A model generated the notes under the pieces. The model did no database searches. It worked only from the letters and a program-made list of their open reading frames with translations, and was not told where the DNA came from. Of a DNA stretch of 64,000 nucleotides, positions 44,935 through 57,954 are shown in pieces. This DNA is from a virus. Taxonomy: Duplodnaviria > Heunggongvirae > Uroviricota > Caudoviricetes. The position numbers and the translations under genes are program-made. The number at the start of each line of letters is the position of its first letter. Within the stretch, counting starts at the first letter, position 1. The stretch is taken from positions 1-64,000 of the IMG/VR virus record IMGVR_UViG_3300010396_000003. One strand, given 5' to 3'.

Positions 44935-45023
44935 TGGAGGAGCCGAAGGGATTCGAACCCTTAATACCTTACGGTATCGTCTGTTTTCAAAACAGGTGCC
45001 TTGACCATTTCAGCCACGGCTCC
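44935..45023 (-). tRNA. tRNA-Ser(TGA)
   Basis: Hand-folded: acceptor GGAGCCG/CGGCTCC, anticodon loop TTTGAAA, long variable arm, T-loop TTCGAAT, encoded CCA. Confidence 0.65.
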
Positions 45024-45025
45024 CC

Positions 45026-45115
45026 TGGAGGATGACGGCGGAATCGAACCACTAACCGATCTCTCGGTTACCCCACGCTTCGAACGTAGTTGGCGACCAT
45101 TCGCCGGCGCCATCC
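45026..45115 (-). tRNA. tRNA-Ser(CGA)
   Basis: Acceptor GGATGGC/GTCATCC (one GU), anticodon loop TTCGAAG, long variable arm, CCA. Confidence 0.6.
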
Positions 45116-45119
45116 GATA

Positions 45120-45206
45120 TGGCGGAACGTCCGAGACTCGAACTCGGGACACCTTGCGGTGTTCCTGCTTTCCAAGCAGGTGCAGTAGCCACTGTGCCAA
45201 CGTTCC
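45120..45206 (-). tRNA. tRNA-Ser(GGA)
   Basis: Acceptor GGAACGT/ACGTTCC, anticodon loop TTGGAAA, long variable arm, T-arm CCGAGTTCGAGTCTCGG. Confidence 0.65.
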
Positions 45207-45216
45207 GTTATTTTTT

Positions 45217-45302
45217 TGGCGGGGATGGTGAGAATCGAACTCACGACACCTTGCGGTGTTCTATCTTAGCAGGATAGTGCCGTACCACTGGGCCACATCC
45301 CC
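45217..45302 (-). tRNA. tRNA-Ser(GCT)
   Basis: Acceptor GGGGATG/CATCCCC, anticodon loop CTGCTAA, long variable arm. Confidence 0.65.
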
Positions 45303-45346
45303 GAACTTGAGCTAGAACTACTTGACGAATCTTCTGACATTTCGTT

Positions 45347-45565
45347 CTACCCCTTCGTAAGATGGTGCCGATGGCACTCGCGACAGAAATAAATTCGAAG
45401 TTTAGCGCGCAATCCGATCATCGCTTTACGCGCGCGATCCCGGCTTGGATAAGATATTTTGCCGGATTTTTCGCAAACAGGGAATGGTAGCTCTCGATGA
45501 TATTCAAAAGAAACTTCCTCAAGAACGCCCTCGATTACTTCCATAGCAACGCGATAATACCACAA
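45347..45565 (-). CDS. hypothetical small zinc-ribbon protein
   Basis: 72-aa ORF with CEKSG...CRECHRHH inside the tRNA array. Confidence 0.25.
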   Translation of the reverse strand: MWYYRVAMEVIEGVLEEVSFEYHRELPFPVCEKSGKISYPSRDRARKAMIGLRAKLRIYFCRECHRHHLTKG

Positions 45566-45601
45566 ATTACGGCGATAATTACATTGATTACCAGATAGAA
45601 A

Positions 45602-45675
45602 TGGTCCCTATCCGGGGAGTTGAACCCCGCTTGCCGGCTTTTCAGACCGGAGTCTTGCCGCTAGACGAAATAGGG
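45602..45675 (-). tRNA. tRNA-Phe(GAA)
   Basis: Acceptor CCCTATT/GATAGGG (C1-G72), anticodon stem CCGGT/GCCGG, loop CTGAAAA, discriminator A, CCA. Confidence 0.6.
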
Positions 45676-45680
45676 ATTAA

Positions 45681-45754
45681 TGGTAGAGATGCCGGGAATT
45701 GAACCCGGTGCTCGGCTTCCCGAAAGCCGCGATCGACCGTCCATCTACATCTCT
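45681..45754 (-). tRNA. tRNA-Pro(CGG)
   Basis: Acceptor AGAGATG/CATCTCT, anticodon loop TTCGGGA, T-arm CCGGGTTCAATTCCCGG. Confidence 0.6.
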
Positions 45755-45755
45755 A

Positions 45756-45832
45756 TGGTGGCAGAGGCGGGATTCGAACCCGCAGTTCCTTGCTCCCAAA
45801 GCAAGTGGGATAAGCCGTTACCCTACTCCGCC
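45756..45832 (-). tRNA. tRNA-Pro(TGG)
   Basis: Acceptor GGCGGAG/CTCTGCC, anticodon loop TTTGGGA, T-arm GCGGGTTCGAATCCCGC. Confidence 0.65.
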
Positions 45833-46151
45833 AAACTTTGCTTCCACAATTTCATTTTCTGTCGCGGATCGTTTCGCGGTGCAGCTCGAGCCCGCGCGTC
45901 AACTACCTGGTGCAGTGCCAGCGGAAAGATCAATTGTTCAATCTTCGCCGGAATCTTCTCGATCAAGAATTCGTAAAACCACTTCTGCCACATCTTCGGA
46001 TTATGGCGATCATCAAAAACTTGTGGAGTACTCGGCATCGACCAGCAACCAAAACAGTTCATATCTGGTCCACCAGTCGCCAAGTATGTAAGGTTTTGAA
46101 ATGCTGTTATTCCACCGATCGTCGCTATATACACGCTTTCCTCAAAAAAAA

Positions 46152-46226
46152 TGGAGCCGATGGTCACGCTCGAAGTGACAGAGGACGGGTACAAGCCGTC
46201 TGCTTTTCCTCTTAAGCTACATCGGC
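46152..46226 (-). tRNA. tRNA-Thr(TGT)
   Basis: Acceptor GCCGATG/CATCGGC, D-stem GCTT/AAGC, anticodon stem GACGG/CCGTC, loop CTTGTAC, T-arm GTCACTTCGAGCGTGAC. Confidence 0.65.
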
Positions 46227-46372
46227 AATATTTTTACAAAGACGAATCTTTTTACTTCCGTCTTCCAATATGACATGCACGCATTCTTTGCAGTTATTGA
46301 CGTGCTGTCTTTGAGCATCGCTAAGTTCGCTCATACGGTACATTTTTTCAGTAAATGGTATTTCCATAAACT

Positions 46373-46446
46373 TGGAGCGGTTGACGAGAATCGAACTCGC
46401 GCTAAGACGTTGGCAACGTCCTGGACTACCACTATCCGACAACCGC
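46373..46446 (-). tRNA. tRNA-Gly(GCC)
   Basis: Acceptor GCGGTTG/CAACCGC, anticodon loop TTGCCAA, T-arm CGAGTTCGATTCTCG. Confidence 0.65.
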
Positions 46447-46501
46447 AAAAGAGTCGGCATTCGAATGACGCGCTTTCAACGCTACCGACTCTTCAAAGAA
46501 C

Positions 46502-46575
46502 TGGAGCGGGCGACGAGACTTGAACTCGTTTAGTCAGCTTGGAAGGCTGATGCACATCCTATATGCCACACCCGC
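46502..46575 (-). tRNA. tRNA-Gly(TCC)
   Basis: Acceptor GCGGGTG/CGCCCGC, anticodon stem TCAGC/GCTGA, loop CTTCCAA. Confidence 0.65.
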
Positions 46576-46595
46576 AAGAAGGCTATAATAGCCTA

Positions 46596-46934
46596 ATGCC
46601 AATTAAAAATAAAGTCTTACGGTTGGCTAATCAGCGTCGTTATAAAAAGGAAGTGTGGTACCCAGCCAACCGTAAACGACATATCACAACCGTTGTCAAA
46701 AGAAAAAATCAAATACTACGTTACATACGAGACATAAAAAGGAAATCAAAATGTTCTCGCTGTTCGGAAAGCGACCCGCGCTGCTTAGATTTTCATCATC
46801 TAAATAAAAATAAGACAATCTCTTTAAGCCAAGCTGCTGCGAATGGATGGTCTATATGTAGGATAGATAACGAAGTTGCGAAGTGCGAAGTTCTATGCTC
46901 CAACTGTCATCGCAAACTCCACACAAAATGGTAG
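46596..46934 (+). CDS. HNH homing endonuclease-like protein
   Basis: CSRCSESDPRCLDFHHLN...CSNCHRKLH is an HNH motif. Start taken at MPIKNKV to avoid the upstream tRNA. Plus strand inside the minus-strand tRNA array. Confidence 0.5.
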   Translation: MPIKNKVLRLANQRRYKKEVWYPANRKRHITTVVKRKNQILRYIRDIKRKSKCSRCSESDPRCLDFHHLNKNKTISLSQAAANGWSICRIDNEVAKCEVLCSNCHRKLHTKW

Positions 46935-47004
46935 CGGGGGATGGGATCGCACCATCCTAGCCCGGTTTATGAGACCGGTCAGTTCTCTAGAACTGTACCC
47001 CGCG
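46929..47004 (-). tRNA. tRNA-Met/Ile2-type (CAT), atypical C1:U72
   Basis: Anticodon stem CCGGT/ACCGG, loop CTCATAA, T-arm GATGGTGCGATCCCATC. The first acceptor pair is a C-U mismatch and the T-loop has G55. Confidence 0.5.
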
Positions 47005-47011
47005 TCAGACC

Positions 47012-47085
47012 TGGAGCCGCTTGGTGGAATCGGACCGCCGTTTGCTGCTTACCATGCAGCCGTTCTGCCACTGAACTAAAGCGAC
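47012..47085 (-). tRNA. tRNA-Thr(GGT)
   Basis: D-stem GTTC/GAAC, anticodon stem GCTGC/GCAGC, loop ATGGTAA. Confidence 0.6.
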
Positions 47086-47111
47086 CACGAAACTTCATCT
47101 TATCACAAAAT

Positions 47112-47185
47112 TGGTAGGGCGGAGCGGAATCGAACCGCCGTCTTACGATAGAGAGTCGTAGGTCCTGCCATTGAACGACCGCCCC
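47112..47185 (-). tRNA. tRNA-Glu(CTC)-like
   Basis: Acceptor GGGGCGG/CCGCCCT, anticodon stem TACGA/TCGTA, loop CTCTCTA (position 37 is T, which is unusual), T-arm GGCGGTTCGATTCCGCT. Confidence 0.45.
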
Positions 47186-47370
47186 ACTTATTTTTTCCTC
47201 GGCAATAAATCGATTGTCGGAAATTCGTACCAGAGTGCGCGCCGCTTTTCCATTAGCTTATCAAGTTTAGTACTGAGCTCTTTTTCTCCCGCACTAAGCA
47301 CAATATATTCCTCAGTCAGCTTATACATCTCTTCCTGGGCAATTGCCTGATGATCCATTTTGACCTCAAT

Positions 47371-47444
47371 TCTGGAGCCGAGTGAGAGAATCGAACTCTC
47401 GTCTGCGGATTACGAAGCCGCCGTTCTGCCACTGAACTAACCCG
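47371..47444 (-). tRNA. tRNA-Thr(CGT)
   Basis: D-arm GTTCAGTGGCAGAAC, anticodon loop TTCGTAA, T-arm GAGAGTTCGATTCTCTC. Confidence 0.6.
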
Positions 47445-47667
47445 ACTAAATATCTGATGCCTCGCGCGTATGACGATAGTCGCGCGAGCGTTCCGCAACA
47501 TAACTTGAATCCAATTCTTGACCAACGCTATCGACGCGCCAACCATCAACACCGAGAATTCTAATATACTTTCCGACAACCGCATGCTTTGACGGGATCC
47601 ACGCTGTCTGATGCATCGATCCTCGAGATAATTCACATTGAGTATGAGTCATTCATCACCAAAAAAA

Positions 47668-47745
47668 TGGGGCGTCATGTCGGTTTCGATCCGACACTCC
47701 GGGTTCCACAGACCCGTGTGCAAAGCCACTACACCAATGACGCCA
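47668..47745 (-). tRNA. tRNA-His(GTG) with encoded G-1
   Basis: Extra 5' G before acceptor GCGTCAT, anticodon stem CGGGT/ACCCG, loop CTGTGGA, discriminator C. Confidence 0.7.
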
Positions 47746-47884
47746 TCGAAATCTGAAGGCTGGCTGTTTCGTTGCTCGGCGCCAGCCTTCGTTCATGCAC
47801 GCAACCCGAGGCATTATTGGGACAGTTGGTTGCCTCTTCCGCGCTAAGCGGTCTCAACGGGACGACCGAAGGCTACGCGCAATA

Positions 47885-47958
47885 TGGTTCGGGAGGAACG
47901 AGTCGAACGTTCGTCTGCTGAGTCAAAGTCAGCTATGCTGCCTTTACACCACTCCCGA
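47885..47958 (-). tRNA. tRNA-Gln(TTG)
   Basis: Acceptor TCGGGAG/CTCCCGA (U1-A72), anticodon stem GCTGA/TCAGC, loop CTTTGAC. Confidence 0.65.
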
Positions 47959-47963
47959 TCAAA

Positions 47964-48037
47964 TGGTTCCCGGGGGACGAGTCGAACGTCCGTTTCCGCT
48001 TTCAGAGAGCAGCGTCCTGCCTCTAGACGACCCGGGA
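47964..48037 (-). tRNA. tRNA-Gln(CTG)
   Basis: Acceptor TCCCGGG/CCCGGGA, anticodon loop CTCTGAA, T-arm GGACGTTCGACTCGTCC. Confidence 0.6.
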
Positions 48038-48042
48038 TCCGT

Positions 48043-48078
48043 ATGCAAAATTAAACAAATTTGTTTAATTTTGCATAT
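48043..48078. repeat. perfect 36-bp palindrome (tatgcaaaattaaacaaa/tttgtttaattttgcata)
   Basis: Exact inverted repeat between two tRNA genes; candidate protein-binding site or hairpin. Confidence 0.6.
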
Positions 48079-48082
48079 AAAC

Positions 48083-48156
48083 TGGTAGCCCGTGGTCGAA
48101 TCGAACGGCCGTAGTCGGTGTGTAGGACCGATGCTCTACCCCTGAGCTAACGGGCT
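48083..48156 (-). tRNA. tRNA-Val(TAC)
   Basis: D-arm GCTCAGGGGTAGAGC, anticodon stem TCGGT/ACCGA, loop CCTACAC. One C-A mismatch in the T-stem. Confidence 0.6.
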
Positions 48157-48162
48157 TCAAAC

Positions 48163-48246
48163 TGGTGCGTCAGGGGAGATTCGAACTCCCATGTCTTTCG
48201 ACGGAAGGGTTTGAGCCTTCTGCGTATACCGTTCCACCACTGACGC
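48163..48246 (-). tRNA. tRNA-Leu(CAA)
   Basis: Acceptor GCGTCAG/CTGACGC, anticodon stem GAAGG/CCTTC, loop CTCAAAC, long variable arm, T-arm GGGAGTTCGAATCTCCC. Confidence 0.65.
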
Positions 48247-48725
48247 TAATCCTTTTTCTTCGTAAAACTGATCAACTGCAAGTTTACACCAATTGCCGGT
48301 TCCGAAGGTGTTTCATAGTTCGGCGCTACCTGATCAGCATGCAAATAGCCCGTAACCAAGGCCGGCGGTGCACATGTTTCATTTCCATTCGGAGACGTTG
48401 GAATACAGCCCATCACAAAGAATGTTGTCGTCGTCCATGGCGGAGCGACCGTGAATGTAACTCCGAAATTTAGATTTGAATTCCTAACGGCCGGACTATT
48501 AATCCTGCCAGCAAACAGATAGGAATTACCGTCACTCTCTTTCACGCATCCGGTTGGAGAATAAAGAGAGGTACAAAGAACTCCAACTAGAAAATGATCC
48601 GCGGTATTACCTGGCTTCGAATAGTCGTAATTCCAAGAAAGAACAACAGTGCTCTGCGACGTGTTCTGAGCTCGCACACATGTCGCTATCAAAGCCAAGA
48701 AGATTACTTTGAGTAAGACTCGCAT
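48246..48725 (-). CDS. secreted hypothetical protein
   Basis: 159 aa with signal peptide MRVLLKVIFLALIATCVRA, Cys-containing and beta-rich, embedded in the tRNA array. Confidence 0.4.
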   Translation of the reverse strand: MRVLLKVIFLALIATCVRAQNTSQSTVVLSWNYDYSKPGNTADHFLVGVLCTSLYSPTGCVKESDGNSYLFAGRINSPAVRNSNLNFGVTFTVAPPWTTTTFFVMGCIPTSPNGNETCAPPALVTGYLHADQVAPNYETPSEPAIGVNLQLISFTKKKD

Positions 48726-48737
48726 GTTGCCTCAATA

Positions 48738-48830
48738 TGGTGGTCGTCCTGAGAATCGAACTCAGCCGTTGCGCTAATCTGGCGCTTTCGCGGGATTATA
48801 AAGCCCGCCCGCTCTCCAAAGCTGACGACC
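48738..48830 (-). tRNA. atypical 93-nt tRNA-like gene (anticodon unresolved, possibly TAT)
   Basis: Clean acceptor GGTCGTC/GACGACC, discriminator A, CCA and T-arm CTGAGTTCGATTCTCAG. The 5' half does not fold into a standard D/anticodon arrangement; candidate loop CTTTATAAT. Confidence 0.35.
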
Positions 48831-49003
48831 TAAACACGTTTGATATTTTGTGGAAAGTGTTTTTCCATAAGTCCAGACATTTCTTTCTCTGTACCGTATG
48901 GATAATCAGCCCACAATCCACGCTTACCGTCTCCATCTGGATCACACCAGCGGCAACCATTAACAGGCTTGCGCGGATCACCGTTACACCATATGTGATG
49001 TCC

Positions 49004-49081
49004 ATTCATAAATTGGCGGTCCGTACCGGATTTGAACCGGTGTTCTTTTCCGTGACAGGGAAACGGGGACTCCAGACTCCC
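49004..49081 (-). tRNA. tRNA-Asp(GTC)
   Basis: D-arm GGGGAGTCTGGAGTCCCC, anticodon stem TTTCC/GGAAA, loop CTGTCAC, discriminator G. Confidence 0.65.
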
Positions 49082-49113
49082 CTAACGGACCTTATATTTT
49101 AGCCCCGCAAGTA

Positions 49114-49187
49114 GAACAAACTTTGGTAGGGATAAGGGGAATCGAACCCCTGTTCTGTCCTTGAAAGGGACTTATCCTGCCACTAGA
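49114..49187 (-). tRNA. tRNA-Glu(TTC)
   Basis: Acceptor GGGGATA/TATCCCT, anticodon loop CTTTCAA, T-arm AGGGGTTCGATTCCCCT. Confidence 0.6.
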
Positions 49188-49194
49188 CGATATC

Positions 49195-49278
49195 CCCATA
49201 AATTTGGTGCGCGGAGGGAGATTCGAACTCCCACGCCCGAAAGCACCTGGTTCTAAGCCAGGCAAGTCTACCGTTCCA
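49195..49278 (-). tRNA. tRNA-Leu(TAG)
   Basis: Acceptor GCGCGGA/TCCGCGC, anticodon stem CCTGG/CCAGG, loop CTTAGAA, long variable arm. Confidence 0.65.
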
Positions 49279-49562
49279 TCATCCGCGCTAAAAATTAACT
49301 TTAATCTTTTTCTTCTTTCGAATCACGCCATTTCTTCCGTCGACGGCATAATCAATTGTGATCGTCCGCGGCCGGCCAACCTTGCGCGTCCTCGATGCAA
49401 ATATATATTTGCCCAAGTTCTCATCGCAGGCATATTCGACATTATTAGGATTCTCTTTAACGCGTCGCAACGGCAGCGCACATAATCCATAACCAAATGT
49501 TACACCATAATCCCTAATACAACTTCTGCTAACGCGAAACGATGTCATTACTCTCCAATCTG

Positions 49563-49637
49563 GTAGTCCACGGCAGAGTCGAACTGCCTTCTCGACGTTC
49601 GGATCGTCGGATCCTGTCCGTTGAACGAGTGGACCTC
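49563..49637 (-). tRNA. tRNA-Arg(CCG)
   Basis: Anticodon stem CGACG/CGTCG, loop ATCCGAA, T-arm GGCAGTTCGACTCTGCC. Confidence 0.6.
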
Positions 49638-49857
49638 AAACCGCAAATAGTTTCTGCCGCACGCGATACCCTGTTCCGCCATCATTACCATTAAGTTCGA
49701 CCATTTCGATGAATGGGCACTCGTCCAGTTCCGTAATTTCGCAGCATAGACCGTGATATTTGCGGAAGACACGCACCGCATCAGTCGAGCACGTCGCCTC
49801 TACGCACGTTACGCCTAAACCATGATCTCCTTCCCATTCCACTACCCACATGCTCAA
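49636..49857 (-). CDS. hypothetical small protein
   Basis: 73-aa ORF between tRNA genes. Confidence 0.25.
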   Translation of the reverse strand: MSMWVVEWEGDHGLGVTCVEATCSTDAVRVFRKYHGLCCEITELDECPFIEMVELNGNDGGTGYRVRQKLFAV

Positions 49858-49980
49858 TGCTTCCTCCTAATCTCCCGCACGAAATACAATGCTACGCAGC
49901 CGATTAGAATCGCCACGCATCCTACCGCGAAAGCTGCGGCGCCAAGCATGAATCCCAGTATATAACTCACGATTGTCATT

Positions 49981-50055
49981 TGGCAGCTCCACGGAGAATC
50001 GAACTCCGATCTTCTTGTTAGGACCAAGACATCCTTTCCATTGAACGATGGAGCC
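49981..50055 (-). tRNA. tRNA-Arg(CCT)
   Basis: Acceptor GGCTCCA/TGGAGCT, anticodon stem TCTTG/CAAGA, loop GTCCTAA. Confidence 0.6.
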
Positions 50056-50737
50056 AAAAAAAATTGGCGGAGTTATAAGCAGTGGGGTTTATGGCCGCCT
50101 GATATCGCAGGATCGACTACATGCCCGGCGTTTGGATCCTCCGGCGAGCTCGGCTTTTCGTCCGGCGGCTGTCCCTTGGTAATCAGGTCTTTAGTCCCTG
50201 TTCTGCCCACGTCCTCACGGATAGCGGCATCCGCCACAACGAACGGCGTTCTATAATTCACGTTGATGCAAAAAGGAGTTATAAACTCCCGCAACGCGAA
50301 CACGCCGCCCAAGAGCCGTCTGGAAACCGCAGTTTATTCCGGCTGGCTACGAGAGAATTGACCACCAGATTCTTCACATCCGGTGTCGTACCGTCAATTC
50401 AACCAACCCAAGCTGCACGGCTCTATCTCAATACTGACCGAACGTTTAACGCCAACGCCCGCGACTTCACTCGTAATGCGCTGGGCCACTCTCACGAGTT
50501 AAGCTTCCCTATCCCAGCCTTAGTGTGTGATTTCCACACATTCGGGGTCGTGACTTTAGAGTTTCTGTCGCTTCTACGCTAAACCGTCCAACCCTCGCGG
50601 GATTACATGGAATTTTGGCGTAGCCATCCTAGATCGACTTTTTGATTTAAGCTGCCTTTGCTCTGTGGCACCGGAGCCAATCACGGCTAGTCGTCCAACC
50701 GTTGATGTGCGCTTTTCTCGGTCAAGCTTCAAGAAAA
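50056..50737. other. about 680-nt GC-rich noncoding tract within the tRNA array (candidate structured RNA)
   Basis: No protein-like ORF (the 153-aa ORF 50121-50582 is Arg-rich and of low complexity). Higher GC than the flanks, no tRNA fold found, and bounded by tRNA-Arg genes. Confidence 0.3.
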
Positions 50738-50814
50738 TGGTAGGGCGTGAAAGAGTCGAACTTTCGTGTCTGGTTTCGTAGACCAGCCCCTCTATTCCGC
50801 TAGGGTAACGCCCC
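50738..50814 (-). tRNA. tRNA-Arg(ACG)
   Basis: Acceptor GGGGCGT/ACGCCCT, D-stem CCCT/AGGG, anticodon stem CTGGT/ACCAG, loop CTACGAA. Confidence 0.65.
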
Positions 50815-50847
50815 ATTAAAATTGAACGCCACTAATATATATCAATT

Positions 50848-50925
50848 TTGGTGCGGCTGGTGAGATTTGAACTCACAAAAATACGAGTCTGAGTCGTACG
50901 CGTATGCCGGACTCCGCCACAGCCG
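50848..50925 (-). tRNA. atypical tRNA with Leu anticodon CAG but short variable arm
   Basis: Acceptor GCGGCTG/CAGCCGC, discriminator A, anticodon stem TACGA/TCGTA, loop CTCAGAC, 5-nt variable region, enlarged D-arm GCGGAGTCCGGCATACGCG. Confidence 0.45.
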
Positions 50926-51114
50926 CTAAGCTTTTTCTAATATATCTTGTATCGGATTAAAACAATCCGGCCGATCATACATAATGTATCGCCAAGTGTT
51001 TTTCGGCGCAAATATAGAAGCAGATCCATCACTAAAATAGCGGTCTTTGATTGTGTAAATCAAAGTATCACCTTTAATACGGACCTTCTCGCCGATATTA
51101 AATTTTGGCTTCAA
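50926..51114 (-). CDS. hypothetical small protein
   Basis: 62-aa ORF immediately downstream of a tRNA. Confidence 0.25.
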   Translation of the reverse strand: MKPKFNIGEKVRIKGDTLIYTIKDRYFSDGSASIFAPKNTWRYIMYDRPDCFNPIQDILEKA

Positions 51115-51125
51115 GTTTAGCCTTG

Positions 51126-51212
51126 GTTAAAAAAATGGTGGATGGTGAAGGACTCGAACCTTCGTAGCTCCAAGGAGCGCCTGGGTTACAGTCAGGTAGA
51201 ATTGCCGCTATC
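51126..51212 (-). tRNA. tRNA-Tyr(GTA)
   Basis: Acceptor GGATGGT/ACCATCC, anticodon loop CTGTAAC, long variable arm GCTCCTTGGAGC, T-arm GAAGGTTCGAGTCCTTC. Confidence 0.6.
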
Positions 51213-51327
51213 TCAACCATCCGAAAATTATCGTGATAGTGACCCCATATTGCGCTTTCGCGCGGCGGGAGTTTGCTGGTCACCCTGGACCCGAAGGCAC
51301 CCACTCCCGAGGTATATATCACGAACT

Positions 51328-51414
51328 TGGTGCGCGAGAGAGGATTCGAACCTCCACGCCGTAAATTGGCACAACGCCCTCAACGTTGCGTGTCTGCCTT
51401 TCCACCACTCGCGC
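51328..51414 (-). tRNA. tRNA-Leu(GAG)
   Basis: Acceptor GCGCGAG/CTCGCGC, anticodon stem CAACG/CGTTG, loop TTGAGGG, long variable arm. Confidence 0.65.
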
Positions 51415-51419
51415 AAATC

Positions 51420-51493
51420 TGGTACCGGCGTCTAGAATCGAACTAGCGTCACACGATTATCGGTCGTGGGCTCTGCCACTGAGCTACGCCGGC
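51420..51493 (-). tRNA. tRNA-Ile(GAT)
   Basis: D-arm GCTCAGTGGCAGAGC, anticodon stem CACGA/TCGTG, loop CCGATAA. Confidence 0.6.
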
Positions 51494-51501
51494 ACAAAAA
51501 T

Positions 51502-51576
51502 TGGAGGTGAGGGTGAGAATTGAACTCACGAATAAAGGTTTTGCAGACCTTCGCCTTACCACTTGGCTACCCCACC
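51502..51576 (-). tRNA. tRNA-Cys(GCA)
   Basis: Acceptor GGTGGGG/CCTCACC, anticodon stem AAGGT/ACCTT, loop CTGCAAA. Confidence 0.65.
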
Positions 51577-51577
51577 A

Positions 51578-51653
51578 TGGTAGCTCCGGCGTGAATCGAA
51601 CACGCTTGTACTCGTTTAGAAGACGAGTGCCTATTCCTGTCGGCCACGGAGCC
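51578..51653 (-). tRNA. tRNA-Arg(TCT)
   Basis: Acceptor GGCTCCG/CGGAGCT, anticodon stem CTCGT/ACGAG, loop CTTCTAA. Confidence 0.6.
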
Positions 51654-51656
51654 AAA

Positions 51657-51681
51657 CCGCGTCACGCCGTACAGGCGTGAC
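51657..51681. terminator. 10-bp perfect hairpin gcgtcacgcc-gtaca-ggcgtgacgc (possible bidirectional terminator)
   Basis: Perfect stem with a 5-nt loop. TTTAGAG follows on the plus strand and GGTTTGG on the minus strand. Confidence 0.45.
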
Positions 51682-51898
51682 GCTTTAGAGCATTCTTACT
51701 GTGAAATTGGATCTCACATGCCTTGCAAAATGCGCGAGACATGCGAGCCAACTTTAAACGTTCAGAGTGAGCGAAAATACCAGCGTAGTTACCGAATCGG
51801 CTATGAGATGCCTTATGGACTCCCTTGCCGACCTTACGCCCTTTCCTTCCGCCATCGTGACCCATCTTTGACCTCCTCTAGTACTTACCTAGGGAAAG

Positions 51899-52603
51899 TC
51901 ATCGGCGGTCTCCTTGTTCTTGTTCATGTTTTCTCCGAAACCAATCACGAATCTGGACTAATTCTTTTTTATTACACTTAAACTTAAAATGTTTTGTCTC
52001 AGTCCTGAATCGGGTTTTTGGAACCACATCGTCATTTTCAATTACCCATTCAGTGTACTGCACTTTAGTGGTCTCGCTCCAGGTGCGAAACCAATATTTT
52101 GATTTACGCCGATTTTCGATTAGCTCCCAATTAGATCCGTCCGAAAGAGGAATTCTGGTTATCTCGTCTTTCACACGATCTCTGTGTCGCCAAGGGCGCC
52201 GGCACCGATCGGAAGTCTTTTGCAGAATTCCGGCTTCATCGCGAAAGAAATCAGGAGTGGTCTGATGGCGTACCGCTCCTAAGCCTTCGGCATGAACGTA
52301 ATATGCGAGATGCCCCAATAGGTGCGCGCCAATCATCGAGCGCTTGTCATTCACCCGACAAATCTCGGAATAGACGTCATCCCATTTCCGGCCTACTTGA
52401 CCATCAAGGAACCGATACAACGGTGAGAGTTTGTCTCCCTGCGACTTCCGATCAAAGCCTCGATGCTTTGGATGCATCGAAACGTGAGACGGTGAATTCT
52501 CGAAATCGTTGCGGCTTTCTTGCTGAAATAGTTTAACTTCGCCTTTTTCAAAACCGCCGTGTCGGCCGGTTTCGATGATTACTTCTTTCATATCGGAACG
52601 CAT
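51899..52603 (-). CDS. hypothetical protein
   Basis: Start reassigned to MRSDMKEVII (GGAGGA RBS) because the longer ORF would overlap tRNA-Asn; basic and aromatic-rich, about 234 aa. Confidence 0.4.
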   Translation of the reverse strand: MRSDMKEVIIETGRHGGFEKGEVKLFQQESRNDFENSPSHVSMHPKHRGFDRKSQGDKLSPLYRFLDGQVGRKWDDVYSEICRVNDKRSMIGAHLLGHLAYYVHAEGLGAVRHQTTPDFFRDEAGILQKTSDRCRRPWRHRDRVKDEITRIPLSDGSNWELIENRRKSKYWFRTWSETTKVQYTEWVIENDDVVPKTRFRTETKHFKFKCNKKELVQIRDWFRRKHEQEQGDRR

Positions 52604-52689
52604 GTTTGTGGATCCTCCGCCACTACATACTTCTGCATTCCATGGTTCACCTCCTAATGAAGATCGTACCCAAAATGGGTACATAAAAA

Positions 52690-52766
52690 TGGCTGGCACC
52701 CCCGGACTCGAACCGGGACCGTTCTCCTTAACAGGGAGACGTCCTACCGAATTGGACCAGATGCCA
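52690..52766 (-). tRNA. tRNA-Asn(GTT)
   Basis: Acceptor TGGCATC/GGTGCCA, D-arm GTCCAATTCGGTAGGAC, anticodon stem TCTCC/GGAGA, loop CTGTTAA. Confidence 0.65.
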
Positions 52767-52868
52767 TCATATATAAGTTTTTAGATAATCGGCTTGATTA
52801 CCGTTTGGCGCTTGCCGATTTTTTCCATGGCGCTATTAAGCGCCGACCACACAACTCTTCTCATAATT

Positions 52869-52945
52869 TGGTGCGGGACGCGAGGCTTGAACTCGCAAAA
52901 CCCAGGGTTTAAACCTGGTACGTATGCCGATTCCGTCAGTCCCGC
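52869..52945 (-). tRNA. atypical tRNA with Leu anticodon TAA but short variable arm
   Basis: Acceptor GCGGGAC/GTCCCGC, discriminator A, anticodon stem CCAGG/CCTGG, loop TTTAAAC, 5-nt variable region. D-arm ACGGAATCGGCATACGT is similar to that of the CAG tRNA at 50848. Confidence 0.45.
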
Positions 52946-53108: not shown

Positions 53109-53175
53109 ACCGCTTTAATCTACCATTTGGGTCAAGAACAACGCAGCACGAAGAATAGCGCTGTTTTATTTTTTG

Positions 53176-53439
53176 TCAAGTGGAAGAAAAAATAAATTCG
53201 TGCGGCTCGAGAATTTTTAGATGATCCAATTGTATTGGAATTTCGGCCGCAGCAAACGTATACGAATTAGTGTTATCGTTAAAAGCCTCACGGAGCATAT
53301 CCCAAAGATCAGAGCCAACCCATAATCGCTTAGGATCCCGCGGTCCTGTTACTGGATCAGAATAACGTTGCCTAAAATCCTGGAGTTCTCTGGAAACTTC
53401 CGTGTAGGGCCAACTATCTACGTGTCGGATTTGCTCCAT
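53176..53439 (-). CDS. hypothetical protein
   Basis: 87-aa acidic ORF. Confidence 0.3.
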   Translation of the reverse strand: MEQIRHVDSWPYTEVSRELQDFRQRYSDPVTGPRDPKRLWVGSDLWDMLREAFNDNTNSYTFAAAEIPIQLDHLKILEPHEFIFSST

Positions 53440-54763: not shown

Positions 54764-56251
54764 TTATATCGTTACCTTCGATAAAACACCATCATAGGCG
54801 CCACTTAATTTCAAAAGTGGTGCATCCATAATTTCATCGACAAGGCTGTAGCGGTTAGTCCGCATGGTCTGAACCAGGTTCGGCAATGCATAATAATCGA
54901 TCCTTGTACCACGAAGATCAAATACTTGCATGTCGATGCCTGCGTGACGCATGGAACTAATTAGCGTTTCATATCCGCCGTCACAATGATACAGGTAAAC
55001 AGGCAAATCCTTGCTGAACTTATCCGCATAAGCCTTGTGGACATCCGGAAAAAACGGCGGCGTGTTTTCTTGGGCATCGGAAACGATGGCAACTCCATCG
55101 ATATCGTGTCCGTTTTCAAGAATCCACTTCAAACCGCAGCCCACAGACGTTCCTCCATCGGCTTTAATATAGCGTGTCTTGGCTTTGATTGCGTCTAGGG
55201 ACATGCCCGTAACGTCAATCGCGTGCGGAGCCGTATCAAAGAACACCAAATACACCTTCCCCTTAACCATCTTGGCAAGAGTAGCTGACACTTCTACGGC
55301 AACGTTAATCGCTTGGCTCATCGATCCCGACTTATCTCCGAGAACAACCCAATTGCCATCAACGCCTGCATTCTGCAGTTTGCGCTCCTGAACGCCACGA
55401 AGTTTTTCCTTGAGTTCCTCGTCTTCGATTGCCTCTGCCGCAGTCGTAGCCTTAAGTAGGTTATCAGAGCTCTTGGCTGCGCGCGTCAATGCTTCCTCGA
55501 ACGCTCCGCGGAGTGCAGAATTCGCCTTTACTCCAAGACGCTCCAACATTTTCGTATTGTTGATAACCTCGTTGGCAGTCATCTGCTTCATCAGCGCAAG
55601 GACAAGATCCGGTTCCTTCGCCTTTTCACCGAGGGCACCGATTGCAATCAGGAACGGAATCTTGCGGGTCATAATCGTTCCCGCCGCTTCGAGTGGAGTC
55701 ATGTTCTTGAGGTTGGCAACAGCCTCAAACAATGAACCGCTCGGATATGGAGCCTTTTTCTTATCGAGTGTCCGTCCGTGCAGAAAGATATTAGCAAACT
55801 CAGCCGGCTTCACATGCACAAGGCTATAGAGAGACCGCATCGTTTCCCTGTGCTGCAATGCCATACGCTCGAAGCGCGGTGCGTTCGCCTCCGCCTTCTT
55901 TAGATATGCAGCAACCAGACGGGACATTGTTGACATACGTCCCGGCAACTTGACATCCATTGCAAAATGCAATGCCTTGAGAAGTTCACGCGGATTGAGT
56001 ATCGTCAAATGAGCCCATGAGTTTTCCGCGAGTTCGACAGGGAAGTCATTGGCCGACAAAGATACGATCGGCAATGCCACCTTCGCATCGCGGATCTGTC
56101 CCTTTGAACGATCCCAGGCAATCAGGTGCGCCAAGAATTCCGGTTCCTTCTTTGCCGCTTCTCGACCGAGAGGAACGTATTCTTTCAGTTCGCCGTGGGT
56201 CGAACGCGTCAATTCTGAAATAATTCTGTTCTTGGTCAATCCAGTTTCCAT
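54764..56251 (-). CDS. Ro60/Rsr-like TROVE + vWA protein candidate
   Basis: 495 aa. The C-terminal part has a von Willebrand A MIDAS (VVLGDKSGSMS ... DGGTSVG ... VSDAQEN) after a long helical-repeat N-terminal region, which is the Ro60 domain order. Two permuted tRNA-mimic (YrlA-like) RNA modules lie 1.7-2 kb upstream on the same strand. Confidence 0.45.
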   Translation of the reverse strand: METGLTKNRIISELTRSTHGELKEYVPLGREAAKKEPEFLAHLIAWDRSKGQIRDAKVALPIVSLSANDFPVELAENSWAHLTILNPRELLKALHFAMDVKLPGRMSTMSRLVAAYLKKAEANAPRFERMALQHRETMRSLYSLVHVKPAEFANIFLHGRTLDKKKAPYPSGSLFEAVANLKNMTPLEAAGTIMTRKIPFLIAIGALGEKAKEPDLVLALMKQMTANEVINNTKMLERLGVKANSALRGAFEEALTRAAKSSDNLLKATTAAEAIEDEELKEKLRGVQERKLQNAGVDGNWVVLGDKSGSMSQAINVAVEVSATLAKMVKGKVYLVFFDTAPHAIDVTGMSLDAIKAKTRYIKADGGTSVGCGLKWILENGHDIDGVAIVSDAQENTPPFFPDVHKAYADKFSKDLPVYLYHCDGGYETLISSMRHAGIDMQVFDLRGTRIDYYALPNLVQTMRTNRYSLVDEIMDAPLLKLSGAYDGVLSKVTI

Positions 56252-57850: not shown

Positions 57851-57954
57851 ATAAATTTACTGGCGTCAAGTCGTTTTGCTTTCGGCTTAGCCGAACGATT
57901 AGCAGTCGTGTAAGCAAAACAGTGGACGCCAAAATCAACTGCCACAAAGAAAGA

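What the first reader, a model, noticed from the sequence alone, without database searches (positions are those of the whole stretch)
44935..52945. Minus-strand array of about 34 tRNA genes decoding 18 amino acids, with interleaved HNH genes and small ORFs
Hand folding identifies Ser x4, Phe, Pro x2, Thr x3, Gly x2, CAT, Glu x2, His (encoded G-1), Gln x2, Val, Leu x3 canonical, Asp, Arg x4, Tyr, Ile, Cys and Asn, and further along Ala at 57777, almost all with encoded CCA. Lys and Trp were not found, and the CAT gene is atypical (C1:U72). That is a near-complete translation set, typical of jumbo phages or of bacterial tRNA arrays. The interleaved HNH endonuclease (46596-46934, plus strand), secreted protein (48246-48725) and small ORFs suggest mobile-endonuclease-driven array growth.
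Basis: seen in the sequence. Interest (0 to 1): 0.65.

Follow-up and report, generated by a model that had tools for sequence, protein, structure and literature searches.

The report
Phage tRNA gene array, 35 genes
A complete 152-kb soil-type phage genome carries a real cluster of 35 transfer-RNA genes; such clusters are well known in large phages, but this one holds several oddly shaped tRNAs, two of which break the textbook rule for leucine tRNAs.

Summary
It calls none in 20 shuffles of the window. All 34 encode CCA, and all have different anticodons.

- **Rfam:** 31 pass the tRNA model.
- **35th gene:** I found one that both tools miss, at 48738-48830. It is a long-variable-arm tRNA with anticodon UAU. 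It belongs to a family in at least 9 related phages, with strong covariation.
- **Genome:** the array sits in a circularly assembled genome of about 152.3 kb, between a Ro60-like/Y-RNA module and the head genes. This is a large phage, not a jumbo phage and not a bacterial array.
- **Missing:** Lys, Trp and elongator-Met tRNAs are absent from the 83 kb examined. The CAT gene is initiator-type.
- **Unusual members:**
  - two tRNA-Leu (CAG, UAA) with short variable loops but otherwise full bacterial Leu identity elements; 18 such genes occur across the clade;
  - an (8/4) tRNA-Ser(CGA), a shape already known in phages;
  - an initiator-like tRNA with a tRNA-Sec-like D arm.
- **HNH gene:** it is real, and its homologues sit at varying places in relatives' arrays. 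No recent duplication supports endonuclease-driven growth.

Verdict: a known kind of system with new variants inside it.

The parts
52869..52945 (-). tRNA-Leu(UAA), 77 nt, SHORT 5-nt variable loop (class-I shape). Has A73, A15:U48, G18G19, A20a and a 3-bp D stem with G13.A22. First gene of the array.
   Evidence: ARAGORN; Rfam 53.3 bits. 61/77 identical to E. coli leuW, against 42/77 to metT. UUA codons align to Leu in homologues.
52690..52766 (-). tRNA-Asn(GUU)
   Evidence: ARAGORN; Rfam 59.6 bits
51899..52699 (-). ORF in the 1036-nt spacer (called as 234 aa, 51899-52603); function unknown
   Evidence: Homologues at 36-44% identity; no Pfam or PHROG hit
51578..51653 (-). tRNA-Arg(UCU)
   Evidence: ARAGORN; Rfam 51.0 bits
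51502..51576 (-). tRNA-Cys(GCA)
   Evidence: ARAGORN; Rfam 68.2 bits
51420..51493 (-). tRNA-Ile(GAU)
   Evidence: ARAGORN; Rfam 55.7 bits
51328..51414 (-). tRNA-Leu(GAG), long variable arm
   Evidence: ARAGORN; Rfam 47.9 bits
51136..51222 (-). tRNA-Tyr(GUA), long variable arm (bacterial type)
   Evidence: ARAGORN; Rfam 46.5 bits
50849..50926 (-). tRNA-Leu(CAG), 78 nt, SHORT 5-nt variable loop. Has A73, G1-C72/C2-G71/G3-C70 and a class-II-type D arm (GCGG...ACGC).
   Evidence: ARAGORN; Rfam 60.1 bits; alignment. CUG codons align to Leu in 13 of 14 conserved columns.
50738..50814 (-). tRNA-Arg(ACG)
   Evidence: ARAGORN; Rfam 52.4 bits
49981..50055 (-). tRNA-Arg(CCU)
   Evidence: ARAGORN; Rfam 48.5 bits
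49561..49635 (-). tRNA-Arg(CCG); weakest member (G1.U72, two G.U pairs in the D stem, A32, 4-nt variable loop)
   Evidence: ARAGORN. Not reported by Rfam even at E<=10. The MFE fold is not a cloverleaf.
49205..49288 (-). tRNA-Leu(UAG), long variable arm
   Evidence: ARAGORN; Rfam 50.9 bits
49124..49197 (-). tRNA-Glu(UUC)
   Evidence: ARAGORN; Rfam 58.3 bits
49014..49091 (-). tRNA-Asp(GUC)
   Evidence: ARAGORN; Rfam 57.9 bits
48738..48830 (-). NEW 35th gene: 93-nt tRNA with a long variable arm and a UAU-centred anticodon loop (UUUAUAA). 7-bp acceptor, 4-bp D stem with a tetraloop, perfect T arm, A73, CCA.
   Evidence: Seen. It is the only extra hit of an acceptor+T-arm+NCCA scan of both strands. 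Fold. The family occurs in 9 phages: 97.3% of cells paired and 21/25 pairs compensatory, against <=47% paired when partners are slid. Missed by ARAGORN and Rfam.
48246..48725 (-). ORF of 159 aa with a signal-peptide-like N terminus; orphan
   Evidence: Only itself found in 5.8 billion proteins; no Pfam or PHROG hit
48163..48246 (-). tRNA-Leu(CAA), long variable arm
   Evidence: ARAGORN; Rfam 50.2 bits
48083..48156 (-). tRNA-Val(UAC)
   Evidence: ARAGORN; Rfam 53.1 bits
47964..48037 (-). tRNA-Gln(CUG)
   Evidence: ARAGORN; Rfam 54.1 bits
47885..47958 (-). tRNA-Gln(UUG)
   Evidence: ARAGORN; Rfam 59.9 bits
47668..47743 (-). tRNA-His(GUG) with encoded G-1 and C73
   Evidence: ARAGORN; Rfam 51.4 bits; flank read
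47373..47446 (-). tRNA-Thr(CGU)
   Evidence: ARAGORN; Rfam 57.4 bits
47112..47185 (-). tRNA-Glu(CUC)
   Evidence: ARAGORN; Rfam 53.4 bits
47012..47085 (-). tRNA-Thr(GGU)
   Evidence: ARAGORN; Rfam 51.3 bits
46929..47004 (-). Initiator-type tRNA(CAU). C1/U72 mismatch; acceptor stem otherwise identical to E. coli tRNA-fMet; A11:U24; only 2 of the 3 G-C pairs in the anticodon stem; 6-bp D stem with a 4-nt loop lacking G18G19; T loop UGCGAUC (G55).
   Evidence: ARAGORN; alignment with metZ and metT; fold. Not reported by Rfam.
46563..46934 (+). Free-standing HNH endonuclease gene (alternative start at 46596) on the opposite strand. It fills the Met-Gly spacer.
   Evidence: PHROG 3106, E 6e-20. Homologues lie inside relatives' tRNA arrays at other positions.
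46502..46575 (-). tRNA-Gly(UCC)
   Evidence: ARAGORN; Rfam 56.3 bits
46373..46446 (-). tRNA-Gly(GCC)
   Evidence: ARAGORN; Rfam 59.8 bits
46152..46226 (-). tRNA-Thr(UGU)
   Evidence: ARAGORN; Rfam 50.4 bits
45756..45832 (-). tRNA-Pro(UGG)
   Evidence: ARAGORN; Rfam 62.7 bits
45681..45754 (-). tRNA-Pro(CGG)
   Evidence: ARAGORN; Rfam 47.1 bits
45602..45675 (-). tRNA-Phe(GAA)
   Evidence: ARAGORN; Rfam 49.4 bits
45217..45302 (-). tRNA-Ser(GCU)
   Evidence: ARAGORN; Rfam 60.1 bits
45120..45206 (-). tRNA-Ser(GGA)
   Evidence: ARAGORN; Rfam 54.8 bits
45026..45115 (-). tRNA-Ser(CGA) of the (8/4) shape: 8-bp acceptor stem, 4-bp T stem, 5-bp D stem with a tetraloop, 7-bp variable arm, U73
   Evidence: The ARAGORN drawing and the unconstrained MFE give the same 8/4 fold. 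G8-C65 pairs while A49/C65 does not; this is unique among 640 tRNAs screened. The best Rfam hit is tRNA-Sec at 28.2 bits.
44935..45023 (-). tRNA-Ser(UGA); last gene, 47 nt before the prohead-protease gene
   Evidence: ARAGORN; Rfam 54.9 bits
57777..57850 (-). tRNA-Ala(UGC) with G3:U70, A73 and CCA; set apart, just downstream of the Y-like RNAs
   Evidence: ARAGORN; Rfam 50.6 bits and its alignment; read
53152..53179 (-). Promoter-like site TTGACA-N16-TATTCT, about 200 nt upstream of the first array gene (inferred)
   Evidence: It is one of only two minus-strand matches to TTGAC-N15-19-TAWWMT in the window.
54764..56251 (-). Ro60/Rsr-like protein (helical-repeat ring plus vWA domain); neighbour of the array
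   Evidence: AF2 model with pLDDT 80. The top 13 PDB fold hits are all Ro60/TROVE. PHROG 850 'RNA-binding protein'. No Pfam TROVE hit.
57952..58470 (-). Three tandem Y-RNA-like genes: Y1 57952-58087, Y2 58210-58352, Y3 58350-58470. A promoter-like site lies at 58472-58501.
   Evidence: Rfam YrlA over the full model, 40.9 bits against a cut-off of 69. Folds with z -4.1, -6.0 and -4.5. The same permuted tRNA-like module lies upstream of the Ro60-like gene in 39/74 loci.

Best explanation
This is a genuine phage-encoded tRNA gene cluster. It has 34 tRNA genes in 8 kb (44935-52945, counting the hidden UAU gene) and tRNA-Ala 4.8 kb upstream. All are co-oriented with the protein genes of a complete, circularly assembled tailed-phage genome of about 152.3 kb. 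The cluster lies between a Ro60-like/Y-RNA module and the head-morphogenesis genes.

**Shown**
- The genes exist and fold as tRNAs.
- Every one ends in an encoded CCA.
- The 35 anticodons are all different.
- Under standard wobble rules (with U34 reading all four codons in the Ala, Val and Pro boxes, my assumption) they cover every sense codon except Lys AAA/AAG, Trp UGG and elongator Met AUG.
- Related phages that share the Ro60-like gene carry comparable arrays.

**Inferred**
- The genes are transcribed with the interspersed small ORFs as a few polycistronic precursors, perhaps starting at the TTGACA-N16-TATTCT site at 53179.
- Host RNase P cuts them out, and 3' exonucleases trim them. Spacers of 1-10 nt and the encoded CCA fit that pathway.
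- Host synthetases charge them.
- They give the phage its own, nearly complete, non-redundant decoding pool. This keeps phage translation running when the host tRNA pool is unsuitable, depleted or cleaved.

Several members have altered architecture. I take these to be functional variants that host synthetases still accept, not decay products:
- two tRNA-Leu without the long arm;
- an 8/4 tRNA-Ser;
- a long-arm tRNA(UAU), most likely tRNA-Ile for AUA;
- an initiator-like tRNA with a tRNA-Sec-like D arm.
For: - **Detection:** ARAGORN 34/34, with 0 calls in 20 shuffles. Rfam passes 31 at 46-68 bits.
- **Ends and spacing:** CCA in all; spacers listed.
- **Phage context:** prohead protease/scaffold/MCP directly downstream, with 56-71% identical homologues in IMG/VR viral contigs. 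The two ends of the contig overlap by 141 bp.
- **Independent assemblies:** three carry the locus.
- **Clade:** Ro60-like-bearing relatives (contigs of 104-157 kb) have 21-31 tRNAs within 10 kb.
- **Codon meaning:** CUG, UUA and UCG codons of window genes align to conserved Leu, Leu and Ser in homologues. AUA has an Ile-like profile.
- **Short-arm Leu:** both keep A73 and a Leu-type D arm. E. coli LeuRS needs A73 and the D/T elbow, not the long arm (PMC9976931).
- **8/4 Ser:** the fold appears, and (8/4) tRNA-Ser is already described in phages (PMC5389517).
- **UAU family:** covariation.
- **Function:** precedents in PMC10264068, PMC11464382 and PMC11555353.
Against: - No expression, processing or charging data exist; the host is unknown.
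- Promoter-like and terminator-like sites are not enriched over shuffles (14 against 18.4, and 15 against 16.3).
- The set does not track the phage's own codon demand. There are tRNAs for AGG (0.3% of codons) but none for Lys (5.3%) or Trp (1.5%).
- Four members fail the general Rfam tRNA model. Arg-ccg does not fold as a cloverleaf by MFE, so some may be non-functional or not used in translation.
- 69 kb of the genome could not be read, so Lys and Trp genes may lie elsewhere.
- IMG/VR relatives found through the prohead protease have no tRNAs upstream of it, so the array is not fixed at this position.
Confidence: 0.85

Rival explanations
1. The array exists mainly as a counter-defence. It supplies replacement or nuclease-resistant tRNAs when host anticodon or variable-loop nucleases (PrrC/RloC, PARIS, retron effectors, Septu, OLD) destroy host tRNAs. 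The altered shapes (Leu without the long arm, A32 in Arg-ccg, odd elbows) would be escape variants.
For: Published cases:
- T5 tRNAs resist anticodon nucleases through loop changes (PMC10264068).
- A T5 tRNA-Lys neutralises PARIS (PMC11464382).
- Phage tRNAs evade retrons (PMC11555353).
- Septu cuts the variable loop of the class-II tRNA-Tyr (PMC13096335).

In this data: the set is complete and non-redundant rather than tuned to phage codon use, and short-arm Leu recurs in the clade.
Against: - tRNA-Lys, the classic target of PrrC and PARIS, is missing here.
- tRNA-Tyr keeps its long arm.
- No defence system or host is known.
- This overlaps with the best explanation rather than excluding it.
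Confidence: 0.3
2. Classical codon compensation: the phage supplies tRNAs for codons that it uses more than its host does.
For: This is the oldest and most widely accepted hypothesis (summarised in PMC10264068). At 47% G+C the phage may differ from a high-G+C soil host. One relative's protein sits in a Terriglobales MAG.
Against: - Phage codon usage is flat.
- The array covers common and rare codons alike, including AGG, AGA and CGG at 0.3-0.5% each, yet omits Lys at 5.3%.
- The host is unknown, so no direct test was possible.
Confidence: 0.25
3. The array grew, and is maintained, by the embedded homing endonuclease, which copies or amplifies flanking tRNA genes.
For: - The HNH gene is confirmed.
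- Its homologues lie next to different tRNA genes in related arrays.
- T4 SegB in the tRNA cluster promotes inheritance and segmental amplification of tRNA genes (PMC2330249, PMC13096335).
- Isoacceptors are clustered (Ser x4, Pro x2, Gly x2, Gln x2), which suggests old local duplications.
Against: - No pair of tRNAs is more than 77% identical.
- There are no long direct repeats.
- There is only one endonuclease gene for 34 tRNA genes.
- The HNH gene is on the opposite strand, and the public gene callers did not call it.
Confidence: 0.15
4. It is a bacterial chromosomal or plasmid tRNA array, or a set of decayed tRNA pseudogenes or an assembly artefact, and not a working phage feature.
For: Bacterial tRNA arrays of more than 20 genes exist (my own knowledge). 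Four members fail the Rfam tRNA model.
Against: - The contig is a circular 152-kb assembly with head, tail, portal-type and Mu-F-like genes.
- Relatives are in IMG/VR.
- The locus is identical in independent assemblies.
- Cloverleaves are intact, CCA is present in all, and all 35 anticodons are distinct.
Confidence: 0.03

Closest known systems
tRNA clusters of large lytic phages, especially subcluster C1 mycobacteriophages (Bxz1, Momo, ET08)
   Same: - Momo: 154.5-kb genome with 34 tRNA genes (PMC4472892).
- Bxz1 encodes a Ro-like RNA-binding protein (gp220) and a PurA-like adenylosuccinate synthetase. This phage has a Ro60-like protein and an adenylosuccinate synthetase too.
- YrlA-like RNAs lie next to Ro60 in mycobacteriophages (PMC4201824).
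   Different: - No detectable sequence similarity: Ro60-like against gp220 gives BLASTP E 0.38 and hhalign probability 1.3%.
- No nucleotide match to any of 50,697 phage records.
- 47% G+C.
- No tmRNA was found.
- In Bxz1 only two tRNA genes lie near the Ro gene within the 46 kb read. Here the array abuts the Ro60 module.
- Short-arm Leu and long-arm UAU tRNAs are not, to my knowledge, described for those phages.
T4 and T5 tRNA gene regions with embedded homing endonucleases
   Same: Closely spaced, co-transcribed tRNA genes interleaved with small ORFs and a free-standing endonuclease gene. For T4 segB see PMC2330249 and PMC13096335. The T5 tRNA-region endonucleases are from my own memory.
   Different: The endonuclease here is of the HNH class, not GIY-YIG, and lies on the opposite strand. 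There are 35 genes against 8 in T4 and about 24 in T5 (counts from memory). No cleavage or homing is shown here.
(8/4) tRNA-Ser / allo-tRNAs (Mukai et al. 2017, PMC5389517)
   Same: Ser(CGA) has an 8-bp acceptor stem, a 4-bp T stem, a long V arm, a D stem with a tetraloop, and U73. The paper reports (8/4) tRNA-Ser with serine anticodons in phage tRNA clusters, and UAU as a predominant allo-tRNA anticodon in acidobacterial soil sequences.
   Different: The UAU family here has a 7/5 branch and A73 (8 of 9 members), not 8/4 or 9/3 with G73/U73, so it is not an allo-tRNA by definition. No (8/4) tRNA-His accompanies the Ser; His here is 7/5 with G-1.
Animal mitochondrial tRNA-Leu (no long arm) and nematode nev-tRNAs (long arm with an Ile UAU anticodon)
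   Same: These are the only systems named in the literature I read where tRNA-Leu lacks the long arm (PMC9976931), or where a class-II tRNA carries UAU (PMC3333845).
   Different: - Here the setting is a bacterial virus.
- The short-arm Leu keeps the bacterial class-II D arm and the Levitt pair.
- AUA columns look like Ile, not Leu, unlike nev-tRNA-Ile(UAU), which is charged with Leu.
Huge-phage tRNA complements (Al-Shayeb et al. 2020, PMC7162821)
   Same: The only protein-level matches in the phage collection are to LR7565xx huge-phage records. Those phages also carry large tRNA sets.
   Different: The genome is 152 kb, not over 200 kb. Identity is only 25-34%. No tRNA synthetase or other translation factor was seen in the 83 kb examined.

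Membership tests
Phage-encoded tRNA gene cluster | Several tRNA genes with cloverleaf structure, found by independent methods and above chance | tested here: met
   ARAGORN. Rfam RF00005 passes 31. There are 0 calls in 20 shuffles.
Phage-encoded tRNA gene cluster | Located in a phage genome | tested here: met
   The 152-kb contig is circular. Protease, scaffold, MCP and tail genes are adjacent, with IMG/VR homologues.
Phage-encoded tRNA gene cluster | Genes co-oriented and tightly spaced, compatible with polycistronic transcription | tested here: met
   All are on the minus strand. 13 spacers are <=10 nt.
Phage-encoded tRNA gene cluster | Expression, processing and aminoacylation during infection | not testable with these tools
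   No RNA data and no host.
Jumbo / huge phage | Genome larger than 200 kb | tested here: not met
   The contig is 152,445 bp and its ends overlap by 141 bp.
Bacterial tRNA array | Dense array of more than 20 tRNA genes on a bacterial chromosome or plasmid | tested here: not met
   The density criterion is met (34 genes in 8 kb), but the replicon is a phage genome.
(8/4) tRNA-Ser (allo-tRNA group) | 8-bp acceptor stem with 4-bp T stem, long V arm, long D stem with tetraloop, G73 or U73, serine anticodon | tested here: met
   Ser(CGA): the ARAGORN drawing and the unconstrained MFE agree. G8-C65 pairs while A49/C65 does not. U73. This rests on a single sequence, so there is no covariation test. 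Serylation is not testable.
Bacterial initiator tRNA | Mismatch at 1:72 | tested here: met
   C1/U72. Positions 2-7 and 66-71 are identical to E. coli metZ.
Bacterial initiator tRNA | Three consecutive G-C pairs (29-31:39-41) in the anticodon stem | tested here: not met
   G29-C41, G30-C40, but U31-A39.
Bacterial initiator tRNA | A11:U24 in the D stem | tested here: met
   Read from the sequence and fold. However, the D arm is 6 bp with a 4-nt loop and lacks G18G19, and the T loop has G55.
Bacterial tRNA-Leu (class II) | Long variable arm | tested here: not met
   Leu(CAG) and Leu(UAA) have 5-nt variable loops. Leu(CAA), Leu(UAG) and Leu(GAG) have arms of 13-16 nt.
Bacterial tRNA-Leu (class II) | A73 plus the elbow and D-loop elements needed by E. 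coli LeuRS (R15:U48, G18G19, A20a) | tested here: met
   A73 in all 5, and in all 18 short-arm Leu of the clade. A15:U48 in UAA and G15/U48 in CAG; G18G19 and A20a in both. Criteria taken from PMC9976931.
Ro60-Y RNA (Rsr-YrlA) module | TROVE helical-repeat ring plus vWA domain | tested here: met
   By structure: Foldseek's top 13 hits are all Ro60/TROVE, over the full length, with TM 0.5-0.59. By sequence models it is not met: no Pfam TROVE hit and no PDB sequence hit.
Ro60-Y RNA (Rsr-YrlA) module | YrlA-type RNA (closing stem plus permuted tRNA-like domain) within about 4 kb of the Ro60 gene | tested here: inconclusive
   The Rfam YrlA match covers the whole model but scores 40.9 bits against a gathering score of 69. 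The structure is supported by folds. The same module lies upstream in 39/74 loci, with 56 hits on the gene's strand against 2 on the other. Binding is untested.
Free-standing HNH homing endonuclease | HNH nuclease motif; gene position varies among related genomes | tested here: met
   PHROG HNH families, E 6e-20. Homologues lie beside different tRNA genes in 5 loci. Site-specific cleavage and homing are not testable.

The most novel reading that the evidence does not exclude
This phage clade has rebuilt the class I / class II division of tRNAs. It uses tRNA-Leu that has lost the long variable arm yet is still charged by the bacterial LeuRS. That would be the first such case outside animal mitochondria; 18 distinct genes were seen, and two phages appear to have only such Leu tRNAs. 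It also uses a long-arm tRNA(UAU) to read AUA without lysidine. These shapes may have been selected because host defence nucleases recognise the variable region of class-II tRNAs.
Probability: 0.3. Interest if true: 0.75.

Novelty: new variant of a known kind. Interest (0 to 1): 0.5.

Why it matters
A tRNA array in a 150-kb phage is not news in itself. The content of this one has three consequences.

1. Standard tRNA finders under-report phage tRNAs. A conserved, covarying family was invisible to both ARAGORN and Rfam, so counts of 'missing' isoacceptors in phage surveys may be wrong.
2. If the short-arm tRNA-Leu genes are charged with leucine, a review-level rule fails for a whole phage clade. 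The rule is that Leu tRNAs carry a long arm everywhere except in animal mitochondria. That would give a natural test of which features bacterial LeuRS and the ribosome really need.
3. Large tRNA arrays repeatedly adjoin a divergent Ro60-like protein and tRNA-like Y RNAs. This points to a phage module for tRNA or RNA quality control that could be studied together with the tRNAs.

Tried and rejected
- **Nucleotide search of the array against 50,697 phage records:** no match.
- **BLASTN of single tRNAs against E. coli genomes:** no result, because the queries are too short for that database. I fetched E. coli tRNA genes by coordinates instead.
- **Relatives found through the prohead protease (21 loci):** they share the head and tail genes but have no tRNAs upstream, so they say nothing about the array.
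- **Sigma-70 promoter and terminator scans:** not above shuffles. Only the two matching TTGACA...TATTCT sites are worth noting.
- **AUA read as Leu through the long-arm, A73 tRNA(UAU):** disfavoured. AUA columns in homologue alignments have the same Ile/Val/Leu profile as AUU and AUC (19 columns).
- **CUG or UUA reassigned by the class-I-shaped tRNAs:** rejected, because both align to conserved Leu.
- **Recent duplication inside the array:** rejected.
- **Sequence relationship of the Ro60-like protein to Bxz1 gp220 or to PDB Ro60:** none detectable. Only the fold links them.
- **Looking for Lys and Trp tRNAs elsewhere:** 10 kb beyond each window end holds none. The remaining 69 kb could not be fetched, because look-ups are restricted to window proteins.
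- **Function of the interleaved ORFs:** not assigned. The 159-aa 'secreted' ORF is an orphan, and Pfam and PHROGs are silent on it and on most others.

Full report

ARAGORN on the window returns 34 tRNA genes, all on the minus strand. 33 lie at 44935-52945 and tRNA-Ala lies at 57781-57850. Twenty dinucleotide-preserving shuffles of the window give no call at all.

Rfam's tRNA model passes 28 genes at gathering score. With laxer filters it adds Leu-taa, Thr-tgt and Arg-cct, for 31 genes at 46.5-68.2 bits. Three genes never reach the model, even at E<=10 on a 4.8-kb slice: Ser-cga, the CAT gene and Arg-ccg.

Every gene ends in an encoded CCA. For Ala, ARAGORN's drawing (4-bp T stem, no CCA) is off by one. 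The Rfam alignment gives a 7-bp acceptor stem with G3:U70, a 5-bp T stem, A73 and a CCA ending at 57777. His has G-1 encoded opposite C73. The same genes appear in an independent ENA assembly and in part in Logan and JGI assemblies.

**2. What carries it?**

No phage record matches at the nucleotide level. Protein searches reach only distant metagenomic huge phages.

Exact-protein look-ups place the window on ENA contig ERZ27256653 k141_4613762, which is 152,445 bp. Its two ends both map to window positions 59488-59628 and overlap by 141 bp. This is therefore a circular assembly of about 152.3 kb, a large phage but not a jumbo phage.

Directly downstream of the array lie a prohead-protease-like gene (DUF6582), a scaffold-like gene and the major capsid gene. 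Their homologues in IMG/VR are 56-71% identical. Upstream lie DUF4326, a 495-aa protein, an HNH gene and small RNAs. No tRNA lies in the 10 kb beyond either end of the window. The other 69 kb could not be read.

**3. Anatomy of the array**

The 34 ARAGORN anticodons are all different. Spacers run from 1 nt to 1036 nt. Thirteen spacers are <=10 nt. The longer ones are filled by small same-strand ORFs, and in one case by an HNH gene on the opposite strand.

No pair of tRNAs is more than 77% identical, the best relatives are 70-83% identical, and there are no long repeats.

Codon use in 41 window genes is flat. With strict wobble, 17.6% of codons lack a phage tRNA. If U34 reads whole four-codon boxes (my assumption), what remains is Lys (5.3%), Trp (1.5%), AUA (0.9%) and elongator Met. 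The phage nonetheless carries tRNAs for AGG, AGA and CGG, at 0.3-0.5% each. The set is complete in anticodons rather than matched to demand.

Promoter-like and terminator-like sites are not enriched. However, the only two minus-strand matches to TTGAC-N15-19-TAWWMT in 64 kb both sit at the head of an RNA-gene run. One is at 53179-53152, before the array. The other is at 58501-58472, before the Y-like RNAs.

**4. A hidden 35th gene**

A repeat family pointed to a T-arm-like stretch at 48737-48767. Reading it shows a 93-nt tRNA at 48738-48830(-). Its features are:
- a perfect 7-bp acceptor stem, then a single base before the D stem;
- a 4-bp D stem with a tetraloop;
- an anticodon arm with the loop UUUAUAA, where the pair closing the loop is C/U;
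- a 4-bp variable arm;
- a perfect T arm, A73 and CCA.

A crude scan for acceptor + T arm + NCCA on both strands recovers 32 of the 34 known genes and only this extra one.

The same scan on relatives, followed by a covariance model built from five members, finds the family in nine different phages at 47-104 bits. Ordinary tRNAs score <=38 bits. In the nine-sequence alignment, 97.3% of cells pair and 21 of 25 pairs show changes on both sides. Paired cells fall to <=47% when partners are slid. All nine have UAU and eight have A73. ARAGORN called only two of the nine, and Rfam misses the window's copy.

In homologue alignments, AUA codons have the same Ile/Val/Leu profile as AUU and AUC. The simplest reading is a long-arm tRNA-Ile(UAU). 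Reassignment of AUA to Leu is not supported.

**5. Other non-canonical members**

*Short-arm Leu.* Leu(CAG) and Leu(UAA) have 5-nt variable loops. They keep G1-C72/C2-G71/G3-C70, A73, a 3-bp D stem with G13.A22, G18G19, A20a and U48 opposite A15 or G15. Leu(UAA) is 61/77 identical to E. coli leuW once the arm is ignored, against 42/77 to metT.

Across 71 related loci, 18 distinct Leu-anticodon tRNAs have 4-5-nt variable loops, and all 18 have A73 and CCA. Two phages (L065, L090) show only such Leu genes. CUG and UUA codons align to conserved Leu (13/14 and 11/14 columns).

The tRNA identity review states that E. coli LeuRS needs A73 and the elbow but not the arm. [quoted passage not shown] I found no paper describing short-arm Leu in phages, but that search is limited.

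*8/4 Ser.* Ser(CGA) folds as 8/4 with a tRNA-Sec-like D arm and U73, both by ARAGORN and by free MFE. It is the only clear 8/4 case among 640 clade tRNAs screened. (8/4) tRNA-Ser in phage tRNA clusters is already published (PMC5389517).

*Initiator-type CAT.* The acceptor stem equals E. coli metZ except for U72, and A11:U24 is present. However, only two of the three G-C pairs are there, the D arm is 6 bp with a 4-nt loop, and the T loop has G55.

*Arg(CCG).* This is the weakest gene.

**6. The interleaved genes**

ORF 46563-46934(+) is an HNH endonuclease. Its homologues in five related loci lie inside tRNA arrays, 7-28 nt from different tRNA genes. This looks like a mobile free-standing endonuclease, as with segB in the T4 tRNA cluster (PMC2330249, PMC13096335). 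With no recent duplicates, growth of the array by this route remains conjecture.

The 159-aa 'secreted' ORF has no homologue. The 234/266-aa ORF has a few. The rest have none among relatives.

**7. Surroundings and clade**

The 495-aa protein at 54764-56251 has no TROVE hit in Pfam. Its AlphaFold model (pLDDT 80) matches only Ro60/TROVE structures over its full length, including a Thermus phage Ro60. More than 990 homologues exist.

Upstream lie three tandem Y-RNA-like structures. One matches Rfam YrlA over the whole model at 40.9 bits, against a cut-off of 69. A strict pattern for the permuted tRNA-like module is found within 3.5 kb upstream of the Ro60-like gene in 39 of 74 loci. It gives 56 hits on the gene's strand against 2 on the other.

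About 30 of 71 such loci carry 10 or more tRNA genes within 10 kb, on either side of the Ro60-like gene.

The closest described analogue is the C1 mycobacteriophage group. It has about 155-kb genomes, 34 tRNAs and a Ro-like protein with YrlA (PMC4472892, PMC4201824). It shares no sequence similarity with this phage.

**8. Verdict**

This is a real phage tRNA cluster of a known kind.

Its interest lies inside the array:
- a covarying tRNA family that standard tools miss;
- Leu tRNAs without the long arm across a whole clade;
- a recurring Ro60/Y-RNA neighbour.

Function in translation, charging identity and the selective reason remain inferred.

Noticed in passing
window 54764-56251 (-): The 495-aa protein has a Ro60/TROVE+vWA fold that Pfam TROVE and PDB sequence search do not recognise. 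It belongs to a family of more than 990 metagenomic homologues, at 55-64% identity among the best hits.
   Followed up: yes
window 57952-58087, 58210-58352, 58350-58470 (-): Three tandem Y-RNA-like structures sit upstream of tRNA-Ala and the Ro60-like gene. Each has a closing stem, a T-arm-like hairpin, a closed 'acceptor' hairpin and a D-arm-like hairpin. The same module lies upstream of the Ro60-like gene in 39 of 74 loci.
   Followed up: partly
window 53605-53952 (-) and 56264-56998 (-): A 115-aa coiled-coil-like protein accompanies the Ro60-like gene in 65 of 71 related loci. A 244-aa HNH protein does so in 36 of 71. They may be functional partners rather than chance neighbours.
   Followed up: partly
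window 50926, 49288, 48830, 48246, 47446 (5' ends of Leu-cag, Leu-tag, tRNA-UAU, Leu-caa, Thr-cgt): Five spacer ORFs (56-159 codons) end in a TAG whose G is nucleotide +1 of the next tRNA. RNase P cleavage would therefore remove the last base of the stop codon. These are all five tRNAs whose leader ends in TA.
   Followed up: no
window 53152-53179 and 58472-58501 (-): These are the only two minus-strand matches to TTGAC-N15-19-TAWWMT in the window. Both read TTGACA...TATTCT. One lies ahead of the tRNA array and the other ahead of the Y-like RNAs.
   Followed up: partly
window 54261-54285 and 54600-54624: An exact 25-nt direct repeat (CATTCCGTGCCTCCCTTGTGGTTAG on the + strand). On the minus strand it carries GGGAGG and the ATG start of two successive small genes (the 91-aa ORF and DUF4326).
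   Followed up: no
L042 12670-12827, L044 13617-13695, L059 13737-13814, L062 1061-1215: Related phages hold tRNA-like genes with Arg UCU/CCU loops, a perfect acceptor stem, a T arm and CCA, but no D arm in the usual place. ARAGORN misses them.
   Followed up: no
L042 12482-12664, L044 5013-5103 and 6304-6391, L046 3376-3466, L026 20559-20643, L045 14521-14604, L059 13143-13230: Related arrays contain 84-93-nt tRNAs with Lys, Asn, His, Thr or Gly anticodons (long extra arms or insertions). They also contain suppressor-type cta/tca/tta anticodons.
   Followed up: no
window 59202-63461 (-): The phage encodes an ABC-type ATPase (268 aa), a weakly permease-like protein (262 aa) and a 596-aa protein with an OmpA-like C terminus, just upstream of the RNA genes.
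   Followed up: no
L098 4180-7707 and L101 (beyond the window ends): The same genome encodes NAMPT/NAPRTase, adenylosuccinate synthetase, RusA, Ku and a second DUF4326 gene. The adenylosuccinate synthetase and RusA have annotated counterparts in mycobacteriophage Bxz1 (PurA-like and RusA-like), and Bxz1's PnuC-like nicotinamide-riboside transporter is a looser NAD-salvage parallel.
   Followed up: no
L027 9071-9146: In a relative, an initiator-like tRNA (CGCGGGG...CCCCGCAACCA, also with G55 in the T loop) lies directly upstream of the Ro60-like gene, in the position the Y-like RNAs occupy in other loci (here 819 nt before the gene).
   Followed up: no
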